The notes below the pieces were generated by a model that did not search any database, was not told the DNA's origin, and was given only the letters and a program-made list of their open reading frames with translations. From the UHGV virus genome UHGV-0098755: a DNA stretch of 64,000 bases. One strand, written 5' to 3'. Positions 2,864 through 49,115 of this stretch are shown piece by piece. The translations under genes were made by a program, and so were the position numbers. Each line of letters starts with the position of its first letter. Positions within the stretch are counted from its first letter, which is position 1. The DNA is from a virus.

Positions 2864-3712
2864 TTAATCAACTGCTATTGGATGAATAGCATTAAACTTA
2901 TGAAATGCTTCTGATTTTTCTTTACGCGAAACACACATGCGAAGAACCTTTAATGGCTCGTCTTCTTCACCCAACGATTTTCGTTTTTCAATATTAGAAG
3001 TTTTCCAACGAGCTTGCTCTGGAAACTCTCTATTGATTTGCTCAAGCGCTCTATTATGTTTAGAATTACTACGAATTGAACTACACCCGCCAGGAGCTTG
3101 TGCTTTTCCAGATACAACCAGATATTTGAACAAGGCCAAATGCGGATAACCTTGATTAATTAAATTGAGAAATGCATACATATCTTCGCATAAATCAATT
3201 TTTCCATACCCAATTTGTTCTGTCGTAAGTTTTCCAAGGTCATACCATGTATTCGTGAATCCATATGAATTTTCACGATAATTACCCCAAGATGAAGTAA
3301 TTTTAAAAATAGGTAGACGAGCATGGCCATGATAATACCCGCAATCCATGGCATCTTCAACGTATTGAATCAATTCATAGAACTGTTCACGAGTTAATTG
3401 ATTAATTTTATCTACGCAGCGACGATCATCTTTCTTTCGCATTGAACTCATACGAATAGTAGTATCATCATCAATCATCCAAATTCGTTGACCTGCATAC
3501 ATATCAGTAATTGCTTTACGAGTACCAGCAATTCCGTTAACATCATCAGGAATAGTTATAATTTTAGCTCTAGACCCATAAGCGTCATAATAAGCTTTTT
3601 CTTCGTGTTCACGTACTACAATATGAGGTTCATAATCAGTCGGAAACATATCAAGGGCAGAAACTGCCCCTACGCGTTGATAGCTTGGAATTACGAATTG
3701 AATCATTTCCAC
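2864..3712 (-). CDS. Glycosyltransferase with DXD motif at the beta-gt locus; candidate HMC-DNA sugar transferase (beta-alpha-gt-like), not T4 beta-gt
   Basis: 282-aa ORF between uvsX and gene 42 where T4 has 351-aa beta-gt; contains IWMIDDDTTIR (DXD-type motif); no resemblance to T4 beta-gt N-terminus as recalled. Confidence 0.55.
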   Translation of the reverse strand: MEMIQFVIPSYQRVGAVSALDMFPTDYEPHIVVREHEEKAYYDAYGSRAKIITIPDDVNGIAGTRKAITDMYAGQRIWMIDDDTTIRMSSMRKKDDRRCVDKINQLTREQFYELIQYVEDAMDCGYYHGHARLPIFKITSSWGNYRENSYGFTNTWYDLGKLTTEQIGYGKIDLCEDMYAFLNLINQGYPHLALFKYLVVSGKAQAPGGCSSIRSNSKHNRALEQINREFPEQARWKTSNIEKRKSLGEEDEPLKVLRMCVSRKEKSEAFHKFNAIHPIAVD

Positions 3713-4443
3713 TCACCGTTATAATCTTTTTTCGCAATATGAGTTTCGCCAGTTTTCCACCAATGGTCAACCAAATAAAAATGGCGGGAATACACATGAA
3801 GGCTCCCGACATTCCATATAATGGAACCTGCTTTATACTGACGAGTTGAATCACCTGCATTCAAATCAGATACTAATTTATCTAGTACGTATTTTTGCCA
3901 TGCATAATCATTACGGAATCCGAAGACTACGTCATTTGAACGCATGCTTACTACTGCATTGACTTTCTTATCACGAATCAGGTACTGTACTGTATTCGTA
4001 CACATGAAATCTGACATACCATCTTTATTGTAGTCAAACTGCATGGATGGACGAGTATAAATCATGATACCACGCCGAGAATCAGGATTTTGACCAAGTT
4101 CAGCTAAACACATATCATATTGGGCATAGTTATCTTCTGACCAGATGGCCCAACCATAATTCGAGTTAATTTCGCCTTTAGAAGATGCTACCTGCTGCCA
4201 AATCTTTGGTATTTCACCTGGAATATCTTTAACAAACAGACTTTGAGACTTATACCATTCAAGTTCACGTTGAATGTATTCATCATTAAGAGCGCCAAAA
4301 ATAAAAGGTTCATCTGCTACAAATGATGCACCAATAATTTCAATAGTTTTAACACCGGTTTTATCAATTACGAAATCTTTTTCCTTTAATGCAATTCCTA
4401 AATGAAGACGGATTTCTTCAACTGTCATAGAGTCATTAATCAT
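3703..4443 (-). CDS. 42: dCMP hydroxymethylase
   Basis: 246-aa ORF, near-identical to T4 gp42 as recalled (MTVEEIRLHLG..., thymidylate-synthase-like fold motifs). Confidence 0.95.
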   Translation of the reverse strand: MINDSMTVEEIRLHLGIALKEKDFVIDKTGVKTIEIIGASFVADEPFIFGALNDEYIQRELEWYKSQSLFVKDIPGEIPKIWQQVASSKGEINSNYGWAIWSEDNYAQYDMCLAELGQNPDSRRGIMIYTRPSMQFDYNKDGMSDFMCTNTVQYLIRDKKVNAVVSMRSNDVVFGFRNDYAWQKYVLDKLVSDLNAGDSTRQYKAGSIIWNVGSLHVYSRHFYLVDHWWKTGETHIAKKDYNGEWK

Positions 4444-19828: not shown

Positions 19829-20299
19829 TTAATCATGTTTCCACACCCCATCGGTATTTGACCAAAGCCGCTGATTATCTGATCCTCGCCACAGCTTTTT
19901 GGTCGGAAGATTTTTCTCATACTTCCCATCAATAATAACATCAACATATTTAAGCATTTCTAGTTGTTTAATATCTTCAAACTTGTATCCTGTCCACAAC
20001 CAAATGCTTTTATTCGGATAAAGATTTTTTACCGTTTGAACAATGCAATGAACAACATCTCGGTTATCAGGATAAAGAGGGTCTCCTCCAGTTATAGTTA
20101 ATCCTTCTATATAATCATTATTCAAACATTCAATTAATTGTTCTAGTGTTTCACCAGTGAATGGAATACCATTTCTAGCATTCCATGTTGATTTATTATA
20201 ACACCCTTCGCATTTATGCAAACAACCTGTAACGAAAAGAACAACCCTGCAACCAGGGCCATTCACAAAATCGCAAGGATAAAATCTATCATAATTCAT
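19829..20299 (-). CDS. nrdG: Anaerobic ribonucleotide reductase activase NrdG (radical SAM)
   Basis: 156-aa ORF with cysteine cluster GCLHKCEGC. Confidence 0.9.
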   Translation of the reverse strand: MNYDRFYPCDFVNGPGCRVVLFVTGCLHKCEGCYNKSTWNARNGIPFTGETLEQLIECLNNDYIEGLTITGGDPLYPDNRDVVHCIVQTVKNLYPNKSIWLWTGYKFEDIKQLEMLKYVDVIIDGKYEKNLPTKKLWRGSDNQRLWSNTDGVWKHD

Positions 20300-22113
20300 T
20301 GGTGTTTAACCCTATGCATGATTTCTTTATTTTTACCGAGATTAAATCCGCGTTCGTTCGGGTTTCCAAGATATCCGCATGTTCTTCTTATTGTGTTCAT
20401 CTTTTTAGGATCAGTTTCTCCACAAATAGAACAAACAAATCCGTTTTCAGTAGGAGTCATTTCATGGGTACTTCCGCATGTAAAACATTTATCTACTGGC
20501 ATATTAACACCAAAATAATCTAAATGTTGTGCAGCATAATCCCATACAGCCTCAAGACCTTTTAGGTTATTTTTCATATCAGGAAGTTCAACATAAGAAA
20601 TGTGACCACCTGTCGCAATGAAATGATATGGGGCTTCTCGAGAAATCTTTTCAAACGGAGTGATATTTTCTTCTACTGAAACGTGGAAACTATTAGTGTA
20701 CCATCCTTTATCAGTAACATCCTTTACACTTCCATATTTCTCGGTATCAAGTTTACAGAAGCGATAGCACAGGTTTTCAGCAGGAGTAGAATACAAGCTA
20801 AAAGCAAAACCGGTTCTTTCAGTCCACTGCTTAAGATGTGCATTCATTTTAGTTAAAATTTCCTGTCCAATATCACGACCGACAAGAATATTCAATTCGT
20901 GAATACCGATGTATCCTAGGGACACTGAACTTCTACCGTTTTTAAATAACTCAATTATGTCGTCATCAGGTTTAAGACGAACCCCGAATGCACCTTCTTG
21001 GTAAAGAATAGGAGCAACAGTCGCTTTAACTCCTTTTAAGGAACTAATTCTACACATCAATGCTTCAAAACATAAATCCATTCGTTCATTGAACAATTCG
21101 ATAAATTTCTGTTCATTGAATTGTGTTCCAATATAAGAATCTAACGCGATGCGAGGAAGATTCAATGTTACAACGCCAAGATTATTACGTCCATCAAGAA
21201 TTTCATTACCAGTGGAATCTTTCCATACGCCCAAGAAACTACGACAACCCATTGGAGAAACAGGAATAGATGAACCTGTGATAGCTTTATTATTCTTAAC
21301 TGAAATAATATCAGGATACATTCTTTTACTTGCACACTCTAGGGCAAGTTGCTTAATATCATAGTTCGGATCGTCTTTATAAAGATTAACACCTTCTTCA
21401 ACGAACATAACAAGCTTAGGGAAAATAGGAGTTATCCCGTCACGACCGAGACCTTTAATGCGATTTTTCAGAATTGCTTTCTGAATCATTCGTTCAGTCC
21501 AGTCAGTTCCCGTACCAAATGTAATTGTTACAAAAGGCGTTTGTCCGTTTGAACTAAAGAGAGTATTTACTTCATATTCGTAAGCTTGGAATGCATCGTA
21601 TACGTCTTTTTCTGTTTTAGATTGGGCATAATTCAATGCATCTGCGATTTGCCATTTTTCTGCATCCTCAATATGTTTTGCATAGGTGCGTTTAACATAA
21701 GGAGAAAGTACTTTATCTACATTCGCAAAAGTCGTTCCGCCATATTGATGGGAAGCAACCTGTGCAGTAATTTGTGCCATAATTGCAGTAGCAACACCGA
21801 TTGATTTAGGAGTTTCAATCTGCGCATTACCGAGCTTAAATCCGTTCTCAAGCATTCCTTTTAAATCTACTAAACAGCAATTAGTAAATGGAAGAGCAGG
21901 GGAATAATCAATATCATGGAAATGAATAATTCCGCTTTCATGCGCTTTCATAATAAAAGACGGGACCATATTTTTGGCAATGTGTTTAGACACAATACCA
22001 GCCATAAGGTCCCGTTGAGTTGGAAAAACACGAGAATCTTTATTAGCATTCTCGTTTAAAAGGTCTTTATTAGTTTTATGAATCAATCCTTCAATTTCTT
22101 TTTCAATTGTCAT
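20296..22113 (-). CDS. nrdD: Anaerobic ribonucleoside-triphosphate reductase NrdD (glycyl radical enzyme), uninterrupted
   Basis: 605-aa continuous ORF; C-terminal glycyl-radical motif RRTCGYLG and Zn-ribbon cysteines. Confidence 0.95.
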   Translation of the reverse strand: MTIEKEIEGLIHKTNKDLLNENANKDSRVFPTQRDLMAGIVSKHIAKNMVPSFIMKAHESGIIHFHDIDYSPALPFTNCCLVDLKGMLENGFKLGNAQIETPKSIGVATAIMAQITAQVASHQYGGTTFANVDKVLSPYVKRTYAKHIEDAEKWQIADALNYAQSKTEKDVYDAFQAYEYEVNTLFSSNGQTPFVTITFGTGTDWTERMIQKAILKNRIKGLGRDGITPIFPKLVMFVEEGVNLYKDDPNYDIKQLALECASKRMYPDIISVKNNKAITGSSIPVSPMGCRSFLGVWKDSTGNEILDGRNNLGVVTLNLPRIALDSYIGTQFNEQKFIELFNERMDLCFEALMCRISSLKGVKATVAPILYQEGAFGVRLKPDDDIIELFKNGRSSVSLGYIGIHELNILVGRDIGQEILTKMNAHLKQWTERTGFAFSLYSTPAENLCYRFCKLDTEKYGSVKDVTDKGWYTNSFHVSVEENITPFEKISREAPYHFIATGGHISYVELPDMKNNLKGLEAVWDYAAQHLDYFGVNMPVDKCFTCGSTHEMTPTENGFVCSICGETDPKKMNTIRRTCGYLGNPNERGFNLGKNKEIMHRVKHQ

Positions 22114-36867: not shown

Positions 36868-37449
36868 CTAACCAAGCTTTTTAGTTAATTCATTCCAATG
36901 TTTTCTACACAAAGAAACATAAATTTCATCACCAATACAGATTTGATTACCTTCTTTAACTGGTGTTCCATCTTCCATTAATCGAGCTGTCATAATCGCT
37001 TTTTTACCGCAATGACAAACTGCCTTTAGTTCAATAAGTTTATCTGCAATCGCCAAAAGTTCTTTAGAACCTTCAAACAATTTTCCAGCGAAATCAGTCC
37101 TTAATCCATAAGCCATAACAGGAACATTATATGTATCAACAATTCGACTCAATTGATGCACTTGTTCAGTTTTTAAAAACTGGGCTTCATCTACAAATAC
37201 GCAATGAATATCTTTTTGTGCTTCAGCCCATTTATAGAACTCGAAAATATCCATATCATCTGTAATAATATTTGCTTCCTGCCTAATTCCAATGCGAGAA
37301 ACGACTTCACAGACAGAATCGCGAGTATCAATAGCAGGCTTAAGAACTAATACACTCATTCCACGTTCTTTATAATTATGTGCAGCAGTCAAAAGAGAAG
37401 CAGATTTTCCAGCATTCATTGCTGCATAAGTAAAAATTAAACTCGCCAT
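36868..37449 (-). CDS. tk: Thymidine kinase
   Basis: 193-aa ORF; P-loop AAMNAGKS; C-terminal zinc cysteines. Confidence 0.95.
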   Translation of the reverse strand: MASLIFTYAAMNAGKSASLLTAAHNYKERGMSVLVLKPAIDTRDSVCEVVSRIGIRQEANIITDDMDIFEFYKWAEAQKDIHCVFVDEAQFLKTEQVHQLSRIVDTYNVPVMAYGLRTDFAGKLFEGSKELLAIADKLIELKAVCHCGKKAIMTARLMEDGTPVKEGNQICIGDEIYVSLCRKHWNELTKKLG

Positions 37450-37450
37450 T

Positions 37451-37639
37451 TTAGTCCTTAGTTAAATTTTCTAAATATGTTTCTAAATCATTTTCAGCTT
37501 TATCGATAGATTTTACTAATTCGTAATATGTTTCGGCATCTCCATAATCAGAAGATAATTCAAAAGACAAATCCTTTTCTAAACTAATAATTTCACCAAC
37601 TAAAAATAATATTTCGTTCTTTTGTTCGCGAGTAATCAT
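37451..37639 (-). CDS. Small acidic hypothetical protein
   Basis: 62-aa ORF. Confidence 0.4.
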   Translation of the reverse strand: MITREQKNEILFLVGEIISLEKDLSFELSSDYGDAETYYELVKSIDKAENDLETYLENLTKD

Positions 37640-37842
37640 AAGGAATTTATATAATCAATAAGTTCTTGTTCTTTATTATCGAATTCTTTAGAAAGTTCTT
37701 CGTACTCGTTTGCACTAAAAGGACCGCATTCATTACAAACTTTTTCCAATTCACTATTTTTATCCATAACTTCGTGGATAAGAGAAAAGAGTTTGTCTTT
37801 TTGTTCTTTGCTTAAACTCATAACCATGTCACCTTTAAGCAA
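37636..37842 (-). CDS. Small hypothetical protein
   Basis: 68-aa ORF. Confidence 0.4.
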   Translation of the reverse strand: MLKGDMVMSLSKEQKDKLFSLIHEVMDKNSELEKVCNECGPFSANEYEELSKEFDNKEQELIDYINSL

Positions 37843-38045
37843 TATTCTTCTACGTGCTGTTTACGACCTTTCTTATCAATAAAGGTGTATTCAACGAATG
37901 TTCCAATGTAGTCTTTATCGACATCATGTGGACTATTAATTGGACATTTAGTACGGCAAATGCGTTCCCATTGACGAATAATTACTGCCTTATTCTTTGG
38001 GTCATACGGATGTGGATAATGTATATTCATAATAATGGTTCCCAA
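37818..38045 (-). CDS. Small hypothetical protein
   Basis: 75-aa ORF. Confidence 0.4.
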   Translation of the reverse strand: MGTIIMNIHYPHPYDPKNKAVIIRQWERICRTKCPINSPHDVDKDYIGTFVEYTFIDKKGRKQHVEEYCLKVTWL

Positions 38046-38494
38046 TCAACAATCACAATTTCTAATTTAGAGGAATATGTATCTAAAATCCCCTCAATAA
38101 TATCCCAGTTCCCTTTACCTATGCCTGCACCAATCCTAGGCATATAGATTGTAGGTTTAATCAGTTTATTTTCACCAAACTCATTTAATTCTAACATACA
38201 ATTCATTAAAGCGGAATATTCAAAATTTGGCCCTGGTTGAAATTGAGTATAAAGATTAAAGCAGTAAGCTTTATGAGTCCTAAAGTATTTTTCATAGACT
38301 GAGTAAGAACCAAGTTTAGTTACATCACCCCATTCAGTCTGTAATTTATCAGCTTCCAAAATTTTAGGGAAAGCTTTGGTTAATTGACCTGCGACTCCAG
38401 CTTTCATCGTATGAAAACAATTGCATCCATGCGCAATATTTTTACCTTCAGTGAAAAGGGCGACAATATCGCCCTTGATATATTTTATAATCAT
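38027..38494 (-). CDS. Macro-domain protein (ADP-ribose binding/processing fold)
   Basis: 155-aa ORF; KGDIVALFTEGKNIAHGCNCFHTMKAGVAGQL and later MPRIGAGIGKGNW fit macro-domain N- and C-terminal signature positions as recalled. Confidence 0.55.
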   Translation of the reverse strand: MIIKYIKGDIVALFTEGKNIAHGCNCFHTMKAGVAGQLTKAFPKILEADKLQTEWGDVTKLGSYSVYEKYFRTHKAYCFNLYTQFQPGPNFEYSALMNCMLELNEFGENKLIKPTIYMPRIGAGIGKGNWDIIEGILDTYSSKLEIVIVDWEPLL

Positions 38495-38838
38495 TTAGTA
38501 CTCAATCCTCGATTATAAGAATCTACCAAACGGTCAACCATTGAATGACAAGCGGCTTTATCTTTCTCCTCCGCAACTGAACATTCTAAGGTATTCCACT
38601 TTTTAGCATATCGTTTTAATAATGTATCGTTTTTGTATCTGCTTGATTTATCTCTTTCTCCGTCTTTATATGCATATATTAATTTCTGCGCAAATTCAGC
38701 TTGGCATGCTTTATTTTTCCCACAATAATCTGCCGCAGTGCGATTTACATATTCTCTAATTTCAGTATATGATGTATCTGCTGACGCAGAAGCAGAAAAT
38801 GAAATTAATCCTATACATAAAACCAAAATTTTAGTCAT
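38491..38838 (-). CDS. Secreted small protein in the T4 vs slot
   Basis: 115-aa ORF with signal peptide; assignment by position only. Confidence 0.45.
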   Translation of the reverse strand: MTKILVLCIGLISFSASASADTSYTEIREYVNRTAADYCGKNKACQAEFAQKLIYAYKDGERDKSSRYKNDTLLKRYAKKWNTLECSVAEEKDKAACHSMVDRLVDSYNRGLSTK

Positions 38839-48287: not shown

Positions 48288-48363
48288 TGGTCGAGGCAGT
48301 AGGGATCGAACCTACGACCCAGGACTTAGAAGGTCCTTGCTCTTCCTTCTGAGCTATGCCTCG
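48288..48363 (-). tRNA. tRNA-Arg (anticodon UCU), CCA encoded
   Basis: Hand-folded cloverleaf: acceptor CGAGGCA/UGCCUCG, anticodon loop CUUCUAA, T-arm GGUUCGAUCC. Confidence 0.85.
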
Positions 48364-48367
48364 TATT

Positions 48368-48442
48368 TGGCGGACGTGATAGGATTCGAACCTATAACCA
48401 ATCGCTTAACAGGCGATCGCTCTGCCATTGAGCTACACATCC
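48368..48442 (-). tRNA. tRNA-Asn (anticodon GUU), CCA encoded
   Basis: Acceptor GGAUGUG/CACGUCC, anticodon stem AUCGC/GCGAU, loop CUGUUAA, T-arm GGUUCGAAUCC. Confidence 0.8.
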
Positions 48443-48446
48443 AAAT

Positions 48447-48534
48447 TGGTGGGGAGTGATGGAGTCGAACCACCCGAGTCGCAATGACAATGGATTTACA
48501 GTCCACACCGCTACCTCTACGGGATAACTCCCCA
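48447..48534 (-). tRNA. tRNA-Tyr (anticodon GUA), type II with long variable arm, CCA encoded
   Basis: Acceptor GGGGAGU/ACUCCCC, anticodon loop CUGUAAA, long extra arm, T-arm GGUUCGACUCC. Confidence 0.8.
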
Positions 48535-48543
48535 AATTAATTT

Positions 48544-48617
48544 GGTGGCCCTGGGTGGAATTGAACCACCATCTGGCGATTATGAGTCGCTTGCTTGAAC
48601 CTTCCAGCTACAGGGCC
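48544..48617 (-). tRNA. tRNA with anticodon CAU (Ile-lysidine type or Met), CCA encoded
   Basis: Acceptor GGCCCUG/CAGGGCC, anticodon loop CUCAUAA; T4 tRNA-Ile is known to carry CAU. Confidence 0.75.
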
Positions 48618-48618
48618 T

Positions 48619-48694
48619 TGGTGCTGATTGACGGAATCGAACCGCCGACCTTCTCATTACAAGTGAGTTGCTCTACCTACTGAGCTAAATCAGC
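48619..48694 (-). tRNA. tRNA-Thr (anticodon UGU), CCA encoded
   Basis: Acceptor GCUGAUU/AAUCAGC, anticodon loop CUUGUAA, T-arm GGUUCGAUUCC. Confidence 0.8.
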
Positions 48695-48699
48695 AAAAC

Positions 48700-48789
48700 T
48701 GGCGGAGGCGATAGGATTTGAACCTATGAGTCGCCGGAGCGACTGCCGGTTTTCAAGACCGGTGCATTAAACCACTCTGCCACGCCTCC
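48700..48789 (-). tRNA. tRNA-Ser (anticodon UGA), type II, CCA encoded
   Basis: Acceptor GGAGGCG/CGCCUCC, anticodon stem CCGGU/ACCGG, loop CUUGAAA, long variable arm. Confidence 0.85.
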
Positions 48790-48791
48790 AG

Positions 48792-48865
48792 TCTCCATAC
48801 AAGGATTTGAACCTTGGACCTCCTGATCCCAAATCAGGCGCTCTACCAAACTGAGCTACACGGAG
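48792..48865 (-). tRNA. tRNA-Pro (anticodon UGG), CCA not encoded; 2 nt from tRNA-Ser (dimeric precursor arrangement)
   Basis: Acceptor CUCCGUG/UAUGGAG, anticodon stem CCUGA/UCAGG, loop UUUGGGA. Confidence 0.8.
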
Positions 48866-48875
48866 TAAATTAAAT

Positions 48876-48949
<74 letters not shown>

Positions 48950-48954
48950 AAATT

Positions 48955-49041
48955 TGGTGCGAGAAGTGGGACTCGAACCCACAAGGAAATCATTCCGCAG
49001 CATTTTAAGTGCTGTGCCTTTACCAATTTGACCATTCTCGC
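48955..49041 (-). tRNA. tRNA-Leu (anticodon UAA), type II, CCA encoded
   Basis: Acceptor GCGAGAA/UUCUCGC, anticodon stem CAGCA/UGCUG, loop CUUAAAA, long variable arm. Confidence 0.85.
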
Positions 49042-49042
49042 G

Positions 49043-49115
49043 CTGGGAATAAAGGACTCGAACCTTTGCATCTAGCAGTCAAAGTGCTATGCCTTACCAA
49101 CTTGGCTAATTCCCA
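49043..49115 (-). tRNA. tRNA-Gln (anticodon UUG), CCA not encoded; 1 nt from tRNA-Leu
   Basis: Acceptor UGGGAAU/AUUCCCA (U1-A72), anticodon stem UAGCA/UGCUA, loop CUUUGAC. Confidence 0.85.

What the first reader, a model, noticed from the sequence alone, without database searches (positions are those of the whole stretch)
38027..38494. Macro-domain protein in the tk-vs interval
The 155-aa ORF shows macro-domain-like signature segments (GDI-x-ALFTEG...NIAHGCNCFHTMKAGVAGQL and MPRIGAGIGKGNW). T-even phages ADP-ribosylate host proteins and RNA, and hosts use ADP-ribosylation in defence, so a phage macro domain could remove or bind ADP-ribose marks.
Basis: partly seen in the sequence, partly recalled or inferred. 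Interest (0 to 1): 0.5.

Follow-up and report, generated by a model that had tools for sequence, protein, structure and literature searches.

The report
T-even phage macrodomain Tk.4 (AdfM)
This 155-residue gene is the orthologue of phage T4 tk.4, a true macrodomain that a 2025 preprint already showed T4 needs to resist the bacterial DarTG2 defence, which ADP-ribosylates DNA, so the finding is correct but not new.

Summary

A 2025 preprint (HIDEN-SEQ) found tk.4 as the only T4 gene needed to resist DarTG2 and named it adfM.

Two points go beyond that preprint's text.
- Tk.4 is not a DarG copy. An invariant Gln84 sits where DarG, TARG1 and PhiKZ AdfM have the catalytic lysine. This matches SCO6735, a published lysine-independent hydrolase of ADP-ribosyl-thymidine.
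- This window carries a minority allele, K31-A32, which breaks the GxG loop motif. It occurs in 21 phage records, against 166 for the T4 allele, and has not been tested.

Hydrolase activity of Tk.4 itself is inferred, not shown.

The parts
38027..38494 (-). tk.4 / adfM coding sequence: a 155-aa stand-alone macrodomain of the ALC1/TARG1-like class
38417..38431 (-). Codons 22-26, motif H-G-C-N-C. H22 and N25 align with SCO6735 H24 and N27, and N25 aligns with DarG N22.
   Evidence: N25 is invariant and H22 is at least 90% conserved in the 72-sequence family alignment. The SCO6735 residues were probed in PMC9411070. DarG N22 is cited in PMC13309987.
38390..38407 (-). Codons 30-35, the diphosphate-binding 'GxG' loop. 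It reads M-K-A-G-V-A here, against M-G-S-G-V-A in T4 and T2. K31 replaces a Gly found in about 85% of relatives.
   Evidence: Conservation counts are G 99, K 6 and A 5 of 117. Codons 29 and 31-35 all differ from T4, forming a short divergent patch. By exact 32-mer, the allele occurs in 21 phage records against 166 for the T4 allele.
38243..38257 (-). Codons 80-84, motif N-L-Y-T-Q. Gln84 occupies the position of the catalytic Lys of DarG (K80), TARG1 (K84) and PhiKZ gp104 (K78), and of Gln85 of SCO6735.
   Evidence: Y82, T83 and Q84 are invariant in the family. Alignments with bona fide DarG, TARG1, SCO6735, Bt_1257 and PhiKZ gp104 are.
38105..38140 (-). Codons 119-130, second substrate-binding loop P-R-I-G-A-G-I-G-K-G-N-W. 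It has the SCO6735/Bt_1257 form (GLAGGxW), not the DarG form (GNGGLDW). TARG1 Asp125 corresponds to Gly126.
   Evidence: The reverse complement of 38105..38140 was read.
38491..38838 (-). vs (valyl-tRNA synthetase modifier), the upstream gene. Its TGA stop overlaps the tk.4 ATG (ATGA), which suggests translational coupling.
37818..38030 (-). tk.3, the downstream gene. Its ATG overlaps the tk.4 TGA stop (ATGA).
   Evidence: The ORF lister extends it to a TTG at 38045. The 213-nt form matches the T4 annotation.

Best explanation
The ORF is the orthologue of T4 tk.4, recently renamed adfM (anti-DarT factor, macrodomain). It encodes a small stand-alone macrodomain of the ALC1/TARG1-like class. It is transcribed with the vs-tk gene block and probably translationally coupled to vs and tk.3. 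Its most likely job is to bind ADP-ribosyl-thymidine, which the host DarT2 toxin places on single-stranded phage DNA, and to hydrolyse the ribose-base bond. That releases ADP-ribose and lets phage replication continue. The active site is not the DarG type. An invariant Gln84, together with H22, N25 and a G-[IL]-[AG]-G-G-x-W loop, matches the lysine-independent, water-mediated site described for Streptomyces SCO6735. Shown here: the macro fold, orthology to T4 Tk.4, the active-site residue pattern and purifying selection. Shown in the literature: T4 lacking tk.4 becomes sensitive to DarTG2, and SCO6735 with Gln at this position hydrolyses dT-ADPr. Inferred: that Tk.4 itself is a dT-ADPr hydrolase, that it uses the SCO6735-type chemistry, and that the K31-A32 allele in this window retains the function.
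Against: No biochemical assay of Tk.4 was found in the searched library. The preprint itself says only that enzymatic removal 'seems likely'. Tk.4 lacks the DarG/TARG1 catalytic lysine. It also lacks the five-residue-longer 'mobile loop' and the K34 and K89 equivalents that the SCO6735 paper links to high DNA activity. This window's allele replaces the first Gly of the conserved GxG loop with Lys, and that allele has not been tested. Sequence identity to any biochemically characterised hydrolase is only 19-29%.
Confidence: 0.75

Rival explanations
1. Tk.4 processes small molecules. It would act as an ADP-ribose-1''-phosphate phosphatase, or as a hydrolase of other soluble ADP-ribose derivatives such as O-acetyl-ADPr or immune signals, like yeast Poa1p. 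Protection from DarTG2 would then be a side activity or an indirect effect.
Against: The only phenotype reported for tk.4 is specific to DarTG2, which modifies DNA. Poa1p has Ser, not Gln, at the position of Q84. 'Phosphatase' is a name transferred from the domain, not a measured activity.
Confidence: 0.12
2. Tk.4 neutralises DarT2 mainly by binding the toxin or its NAD+/DNA site in stoichiometric amounts, rather than by catalysis.
For: Catalytically dead SCO6735 Q85A, DarG K80A and TARG1 K84A all inhibit DarT in vitro, and SCO6735 inhibits most strongly (PMC9411070). Tk.4 lacks the canonical catalytic lysine.
Against: Tk.4 has no counterpart of the C-terminal DarT-binding domain of DarG. It is 155 aa, against 356-371 aa for DarG. 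The invariance of N25, Q84 and the ADPr-binding loops across distant phage lineages fits a conserved active site better than a toxin-specific interface.
Confidence: 0.08
3. Tk.4 erases or reads the phage's own ADP-ribosyl or RNAylation marks made by Alt, ModA and ModB on host proteins.
For: T-even phages encode ADP-ribosyltransferases (established knowledge, also mentioned in PMC9503650). ALC1-like macrodomains such as TARG1 and SCO6735 can also de-modify proteins at Glu or Asp.
Against: By established knowledge, Alt and Mod enzymes modify arginine, a linkage handled by ARH-type enzymes rather than by macrodomains. No phenotype or genomic linkage connects tk.4 to alt or mod. Homologues occur in many phage groups (2,729 records); whether those phages carry Alt/Mod-type ARTs was not examined.
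Confidence: 0.03
4. The allele in this window is functionally impaired, because Lys31 disrupts the GxG diphosphate-binding loop.
For: Position 31 is Gly in about 85% of 117 relatives and in T4, T2, DarG, TARG1, SCO6735 and Bt_1257. The K31-A32 allele is the minority form, with 21 records against 166.
Against: The same allele persists in 21 independently isolated phages. Lys at this position recurs in distant family members P0095 and P0120. The ORF is intact, and pN/pS against T4 is 0.14.
Confidence: 0.07

Closest known systems
T4 Tk.4 = AdfM (NP_049723; HIDEN-SEQ preprint, bioRxiv 10.1101/2025.11.20.689424)
   Same: 151/155 identical, same length, and same position between tk.3 and vs with ATGA overlaps. 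All family-invariant residues are shared.
   Different: Four substitutions: I3V, T15A, K31G and A32S. Two of them lie in the GxG loop, and codons 29 and 31-35 form a short divergent patch. The window allele has not been tested.
Streptomyces coelicolor SCO6735 and Bacteroides Bt_1257 (PDB 5E3B, 2FG1/2AFC): Gln-type ALC1-like macrodomains, with SCO6735 a dT-ADPr DNA hydrolase
   Different: Only 22-29% identical. Tk.4 lacks the longer 'mobile loop' and the K34 and K89 equivalents. It is encoded by a phage, not a cell.
DarG antitoxin macrodomain (M. tuberculosis 5M3I, T. aquaticus 5M31/5M3E)
   Different: Gln84 replaces the essential K80, and His22 replaces Asn19. The second loop differs, and there is no C-terminal DarT-binding domain. 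The NCBIfam DarG score is 25 bits against a cut-off of 250.
PhiKZ gp104 'AdfM' (Cell Rep 2026, PMC13309987)
   Same: A stand-alone phage macrodomain that protects against DarTG2. It was given the same name independently.
   Different: gp104 is DarG-like, with an FPTK motif, N23 and K78, and 32-39% identity to DarG. Its dT-ADPr hydrolase activity is shown biochemically. Its identity to Tk.4 is 19%, with only a 23-residue BLASTP match at E 0.017. The two AdfM proteins therefore come from different macro sub-clades.
Human TARG1/OARD1 and yeast Poa1p
   Different: The TARG1 catalytic dyad K84/D125 corresponds to Q84/G126 in Tk.4. Poa1p is an ADPr-1''-phosphate phosphatase and has Ser at the Q84 position.

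Membership tests
Macro domain superfamily (Pfam PF01661) | Profile score at or above Pfam's gathering threshold | tested here: met
   25 bits against a cut-off of 22, E=1.9e-5, covering profile positions 2-113 of 118.
Macro domain superfamily (Pfam PF01661) | Three-layer alpha/beta macro fold | tested here: met
Macro domain superfamily (Pfam PF01661) | Conserved GxG motif in the ADPr-binding loop after the second core strand (as described in PMC9503650) | tested here: inconclusive
   The T4 orthologue has G31-S-G33. This window has K31-A-G33, so only the second Gly is kept. The functional consequence is unknown.
ALC1/TARG1-like macrodomain class | Closest structural and sequence relatives are TARG1, DarG, Poa1p and SCO6735/Bt_1257 rather than MacroD, PARG or viral nsp3 types | tested here: met
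T4 Tk.4 / AdfM orthologous group | High identity over the full length and a conserved position between tk.3 and vs | tested here: met
   97% identity over 155/155 residues. The gene order is the same in T4 and T2.
T4 Tk.4 / AdfM orthologous group | Required for phage growth on DarTG2-expressing hosts | not testable with these tools
   Shown for T4 only. An infection assay with this allele is needed.
DarG antitoxin (NCBIfam NF048014, equivalog) | Score at or above the curated cut-off of 250 bits | tested here: not met
   25.1 bits. A bona fide DarG used as control scored 392 bits.
DarG antitoxin (NCBIfam NF048014, equivalog) | Catalytic lysine (K80) in the FPTK motif | tested here: not met
   Gln84 is invariant in the Tk.4 family and aligns with K80 of three DarG proteins and K78 of PhiKZ gp104.
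DarG antitoxin (NCBIfam NF048014, equivalog) | C-terminal DarT-binding domain and an adjacent darT gene | tested here: not met
   Tk.4 is 155 aa, a macro domain only. Its neighbours are vs and tk.3. The DarG controls are 356-371 aa, and one lies next to darT.
SCO6735/Bt_1257 subclass (Gln-type dT-ADPr hydrolases) | Gln at the catalytic-Lys position, plus His and Asn of the first motif | tested here: met
   H22, N25 and Q84 align with H24, N27 and Q85. The residue roles come from PMC9411070.
SCO6735/Bt_1257 subclass (Gln-type dT-ADPr hydrolases) | Mobile loop five residues longer than in TARG1 or DarG (stated as characteristic of the subclass) | tested here: not met
   The alignment shows a 5-6-column gap in Tk.4 relative to SCO6735 and Bt_1257 after Q84, so the loop has TARG1/DarG length (criterion).
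SCO6735/Bt_1257 subclass (Gln-type dT-ADPr hydrolases) | Hydrolysis of thymidine-linked ADP-ribose on ssDNA | not testable with these tools
   This needs an enzyme assay. Only genetic evidence exists for T4 Tk.4.
Poa1p-like ADPr-1''-phosphate phosphatases | Significant sequence and structural similarity, and a shared H-x-C-N-C motif | tested here: met
Poa1p-like ADPr-1''-phosphate phosphatases | Phosphatase activity on ADP-ribose-1''-phosphate | not testable with these tools
   The annotation 'phosphatase' is transferred from the domain name. No assay was found.

The most novel reading that the evidence does not exclude
T-even Tk.4 is not an 'orphan DarG' captured from a DarTG2 operon. It would be an independently recruited, lysine-independent (Gln84) thymidine-ADP-ribose hydrolase from the SCO6735/Poa1p-like branch. 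Phages would then have reached anti-DarT2 activity at least twice, from different macro sub-clades: Tk.4 and PhiKZ gp104. The short divergent patch over the diphosphate-binding loop (K31-A32 allele) would reflect arms-race tuning of substrate or DarT-variant specificity rather than neutral drift.
Probability: 0.3. Interest if true: 0.4.

Novelty: already known. Interest (0 to 1): 0.15.

Why it matters
The gene belongs to the counter-defence repertoire of the T-even phages, alongside AdfA and AdfN, which act against DarTG1. The domain assignment has been in the T4 record for years, and the anti-DarTG2 role was published as a preprint in 2025, so the scan finding adds nothing fundamentally new. 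Two modest residual points remain. First, the active site is Gln-type rather than the DarG Lys-type, which bears on how ADP-ribosyl-thymidine is hydrolysed and on whether phage anti-DarT macrodomains arose more than once. Second, a natural allele alters the GxG loop and could serve as a ready-made specificity or activity variant for experiments.

Tried and rejected
- DarG membership was considered because NCBIfam and PADLOC both returned DarG as the only hit. It was rejected. The scores are domain-level only (25-30 bits), the catalytic lysine is absent, and there is no DarT-binding domain. This was checked against two real DarG proteins fetched from plasmids.
- The sigma-70 promoter scan of 36.5-42.5 kb gave no more sites than shuffled sequence (21 against 21.9 expected). 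No promoter is claimed. Early expression rests on general knowledge of the T4 tk-vs-regB region.
- The Poa1p structure paper (PDB 6LFQ-6LFU) is not in the searchable library, so Poa1p catalytic residues could not be compared from the literature.
- A literature search for further work on tk.4 found only the HIDEN-SEQ preprint, a T2 RIL-seq and proteomics preprint, and incidental mentions.
Its numbering (K84, D125) is self-consistent, and it aligns as expected with the PDB hits, but it was not checked residue by residue against a database.

Full report
**Observation**

The ORF lister gives a 155-aa, ATG-started ORF at 38027..38494 on the minus strand. The flanking genes on the same strand are:
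- thymidine kinase, 36868..37449;
- three small ORFs, tk.1 to tk.3;
- downstream in coordinate terms but upstream in transcription, a 115-aa ORF (vs), a 181-aa transglycosylase-like ORF (vs.1) and a 153-aa ORF (regB).

The tk.4 ATG overlaps the vs stop, and the tk.4 stop overlaps the tk.3 ATG. Both junctions read ATGA.

**Identity of the window and the gene**

A 2-kb query around the ORF matches 670 phage records. Nearly all are Tequatrovirus, with the best hit at 99.2% and T6 and T2 at about 98%. The first 25 kb of the window match the same phages across the genes for DNA polymerase, nrdD, helicase and alpha-glucosyltransferase.

In the T2 and T4 records the corresponding gene is tk.4. The protein is 151/155 identical to T4 Tk.4, with differences I3V, T15A, K31G and A32S. 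Other records call it 'macro domain protein' or 'high-affinity ADP-ribose binding module protein'. The domain assignment is therefore not new.

**Is it a macrodomain?**

Yes, on several lines of evidence.
- Pfam Macro scores 25 bits, above the gathering cut-off of 22. PHROG 335 gives E 6.8e-65.
- phmmer against PDB sequences finds Bt_1257 (3e-8), Poa1p, TARG1, SCO6735 and DarG.
- A database search returned 161 homologues, many pre-annotated with PF01661.
- An AlphaFold2 model built from a 72-sequence alignment has mean pLDDT 95.5 and pTM 0.91.
- Foldseek against the PDB puts TARG1, Poa1p, Bt_1257 and DarG first, at E 5e-10 to 2e-7.

The protein therefore belongs to the ALC1/TARG1-like class.

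**What is already known about its function**

A full-text search for 'tk.4' found the HIDEN-SEQ preprint (bioRxiv 10.1101/2025.11.20.689424). In a T4 transposon library grown on a host expressing DarTG2, tk.4 was the single significant hit. A clean knock-out sensitised T4 to DarTG2, and the authors named the gene adfM. They state that enzymatic removal of ADP-ribose from DNA 'seems likely'. That part remains an inference.

Earlier work on AdfN had noted that T4 lacking both AdfA and AdfN is still DarTG2-resistant, and so must carry another counter-measure (PMC11257639). A T2 study detected the Tk.4 protein by proteomics, and found tk.4 mRNA interacting with the host sRNA ArcZ without any effect on protein level.

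**Relation to DarG and to the other 'AdfM'**

NCBIfam and PADLOC each return only DarG, but at domain level: 25 bits against a 250-bit cut-off, and 30 bits.

To test membership I fetched two real DarG genes from plasmids.
- One is from Mycobacterium intracellulare. It scores 392 bits on the NCBIfam model and is nearly identical to the solved M. tuberculosis macrodomain.
- The other is from Klebsiella and lies next to an annotated darT.

Alignments place the invariant Gln84 of the Tk.4 family (motif N-L-Y-T-Q) exactly at K80 of DarG (F-P-T-K), at K84 of TARG1, and at K78 of PhiKZ gp104. TARG1 D125 corresponds to Gly126. DarG N22 is conserved as N25.

PhiKZ gp104 was independently named AdfM, and it has been shown biochemically to remove DarT2 marks (PMC13309987). 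It is DarG-like, at 32-39% identity to DarG, but only 19% identical to Tk.4. Pairwise BLASTP between the two finds only a 23-residue match at E 0.017. The two phage AdfM proteins therefore come from different sub-clades of the class.

**A precedent for the Gln active site**

Streptomyces SCO6735 (PDB 5E3B) lacks the TARG1 and DarG catalytic residues and has Gln85 at that position. Even so, it removes thymidine-linked ADP-ribose from DNA faster than DarG or TARG1. Q85A and Q85E abolish activity, and a water-mediated mechanism was proposed that involves the V25 backbone, N27 and H24. Its dead mutant also inhibits DarT by binding (PMC9411070).

Tk.4 does not have the five-residue-longer 'mobile loop' that the paper gives as characteristic of that subclass. 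It also lacks the K34 and K89 equivalents. I therefore describe it as working like SCO6735, but I do not file it as a member of that subclass.

**The allele in this window**

Residue 31, the first Gly of the conserved GxG loop, is Lys here. In 117 relatives the counts are Gly 99, Lys 6 and Ala 5. T4, T2, DarG, TARG1, SCO6735 and Bt_1257 all have Gly.

Of the 16 nucleotide differences from T4, most fall in codons 29-35, which suggests a short recombinant patch. Overall pN/pS is 0.14.

An exact 32-nt probe over codons 31-32 finds this allele in 21 phage records, including RB51, RB68, wV7, HY03, SG1 and JEP6. The T4 form is found in 166 records, including T4, T2, RB14 and RB59. Lys also occurs at this position in distant family members (P0095 and P0120). 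The allele is probably tolerated, but it has not been tested.

**Distribution**

tblastn finds homologues in 2,729 of 50,697 phage records. They span Escherichia, Klebsiella, Salmonella, Pseudomonas, Vibrio, Acinetobacter, Aeromonas, cyanophage and Streptomyces phages. This agrees with the survey of Iyer et al., which found macro domains in about 41% of myoviruses.

**Verdict**

However, the gene is the known tk.4/adfM. Novelty is 'already known' and interest is low.

The best explanation is hydrolysis of DarT2-made ADP-ribosyl-thymidine by a Gln-type macrodomain, with confidence of about 0.75. The fold, the orthology and the residue pattern are shown here. The DarTG2 phenotype is shown in T4 by others. 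The enzymatic step and the competence of the K31 allele are inferred.

Noticed in passing
window 48288-49115 (minus strand): A cluster of 10 tRNA genes: Arg-TCT, Asn-GTT, Tyr-GTA, a CAT-anticodon tRNA called Met by ARAGORN, Thr, Ser, Pro, Gly, Leu and Gln. From my own knowledge, reference T4 has 8, so Asn and Tyr look like extras in this phage.
   Followed up: no
window 37636-38030, compared with L001 (T2) 3237-4004: T2 and T6 carry about 373 bp more between tk.2 and tk.3, holding two small extra ORFs (T2_114 and T2_115). This window has the shorter T4-like arrangement.
   Followed up: partly
window 38390-38409 (codons 29-35 of tk.4): Six of seven consecutive codons differ from T4, while the rest of the gene is nearly identical. 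This looks like a short gene-conversion or recombination patch centred on the ADP-ribose-binding loop.
   Followed up: partly
L002 (T4 NC_000866) 1353-1535 and 3714-3926; also bioRxiv 10.64898/2026.06.19.733364: There are name-driven mis-annotations. RefSeq calls T4 mobD.4 'molybdopterin-guanine dinucleotide biosynthesis protein MobD', and labels tk.3 as 'Tk.2 conserved hypothetical protein'. A 2026 preprint describes T2 tk.4 as a 'putative thymidine kinase'.
   Followed up: no
PP537961.1 Streptomyces phage Francob 87884-88321 (hit H63): A Tk.4-like macro ORF lies next to a gene annotated as an ADP-ribosyltransferase (gene 167). This may be a phage-borne writer/eraser or toxin-antitoxin pair.
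   Followed up: no
Bacillus thuringiensis plasmids, e.g. NZ_CP013278.1 145437-145904 (hits H79-H87): The Tk.4-like macro region lies inside proteins annotated as 'SLOG family protein'. This suggests macro-SLOG fusions of the kind discussed by Iyer et al..
   Followed up: no
CP057073.1 E. coli 'plasmid' 19859-20308 (hit H66): A 137-kb record deposited as a plasmid encodes a 40%-identical Tk.4 homologue. That is the same identity level as the rV5-like phage Murica, so the record may be a phage or a phage-plasmid.
   Followed up: no
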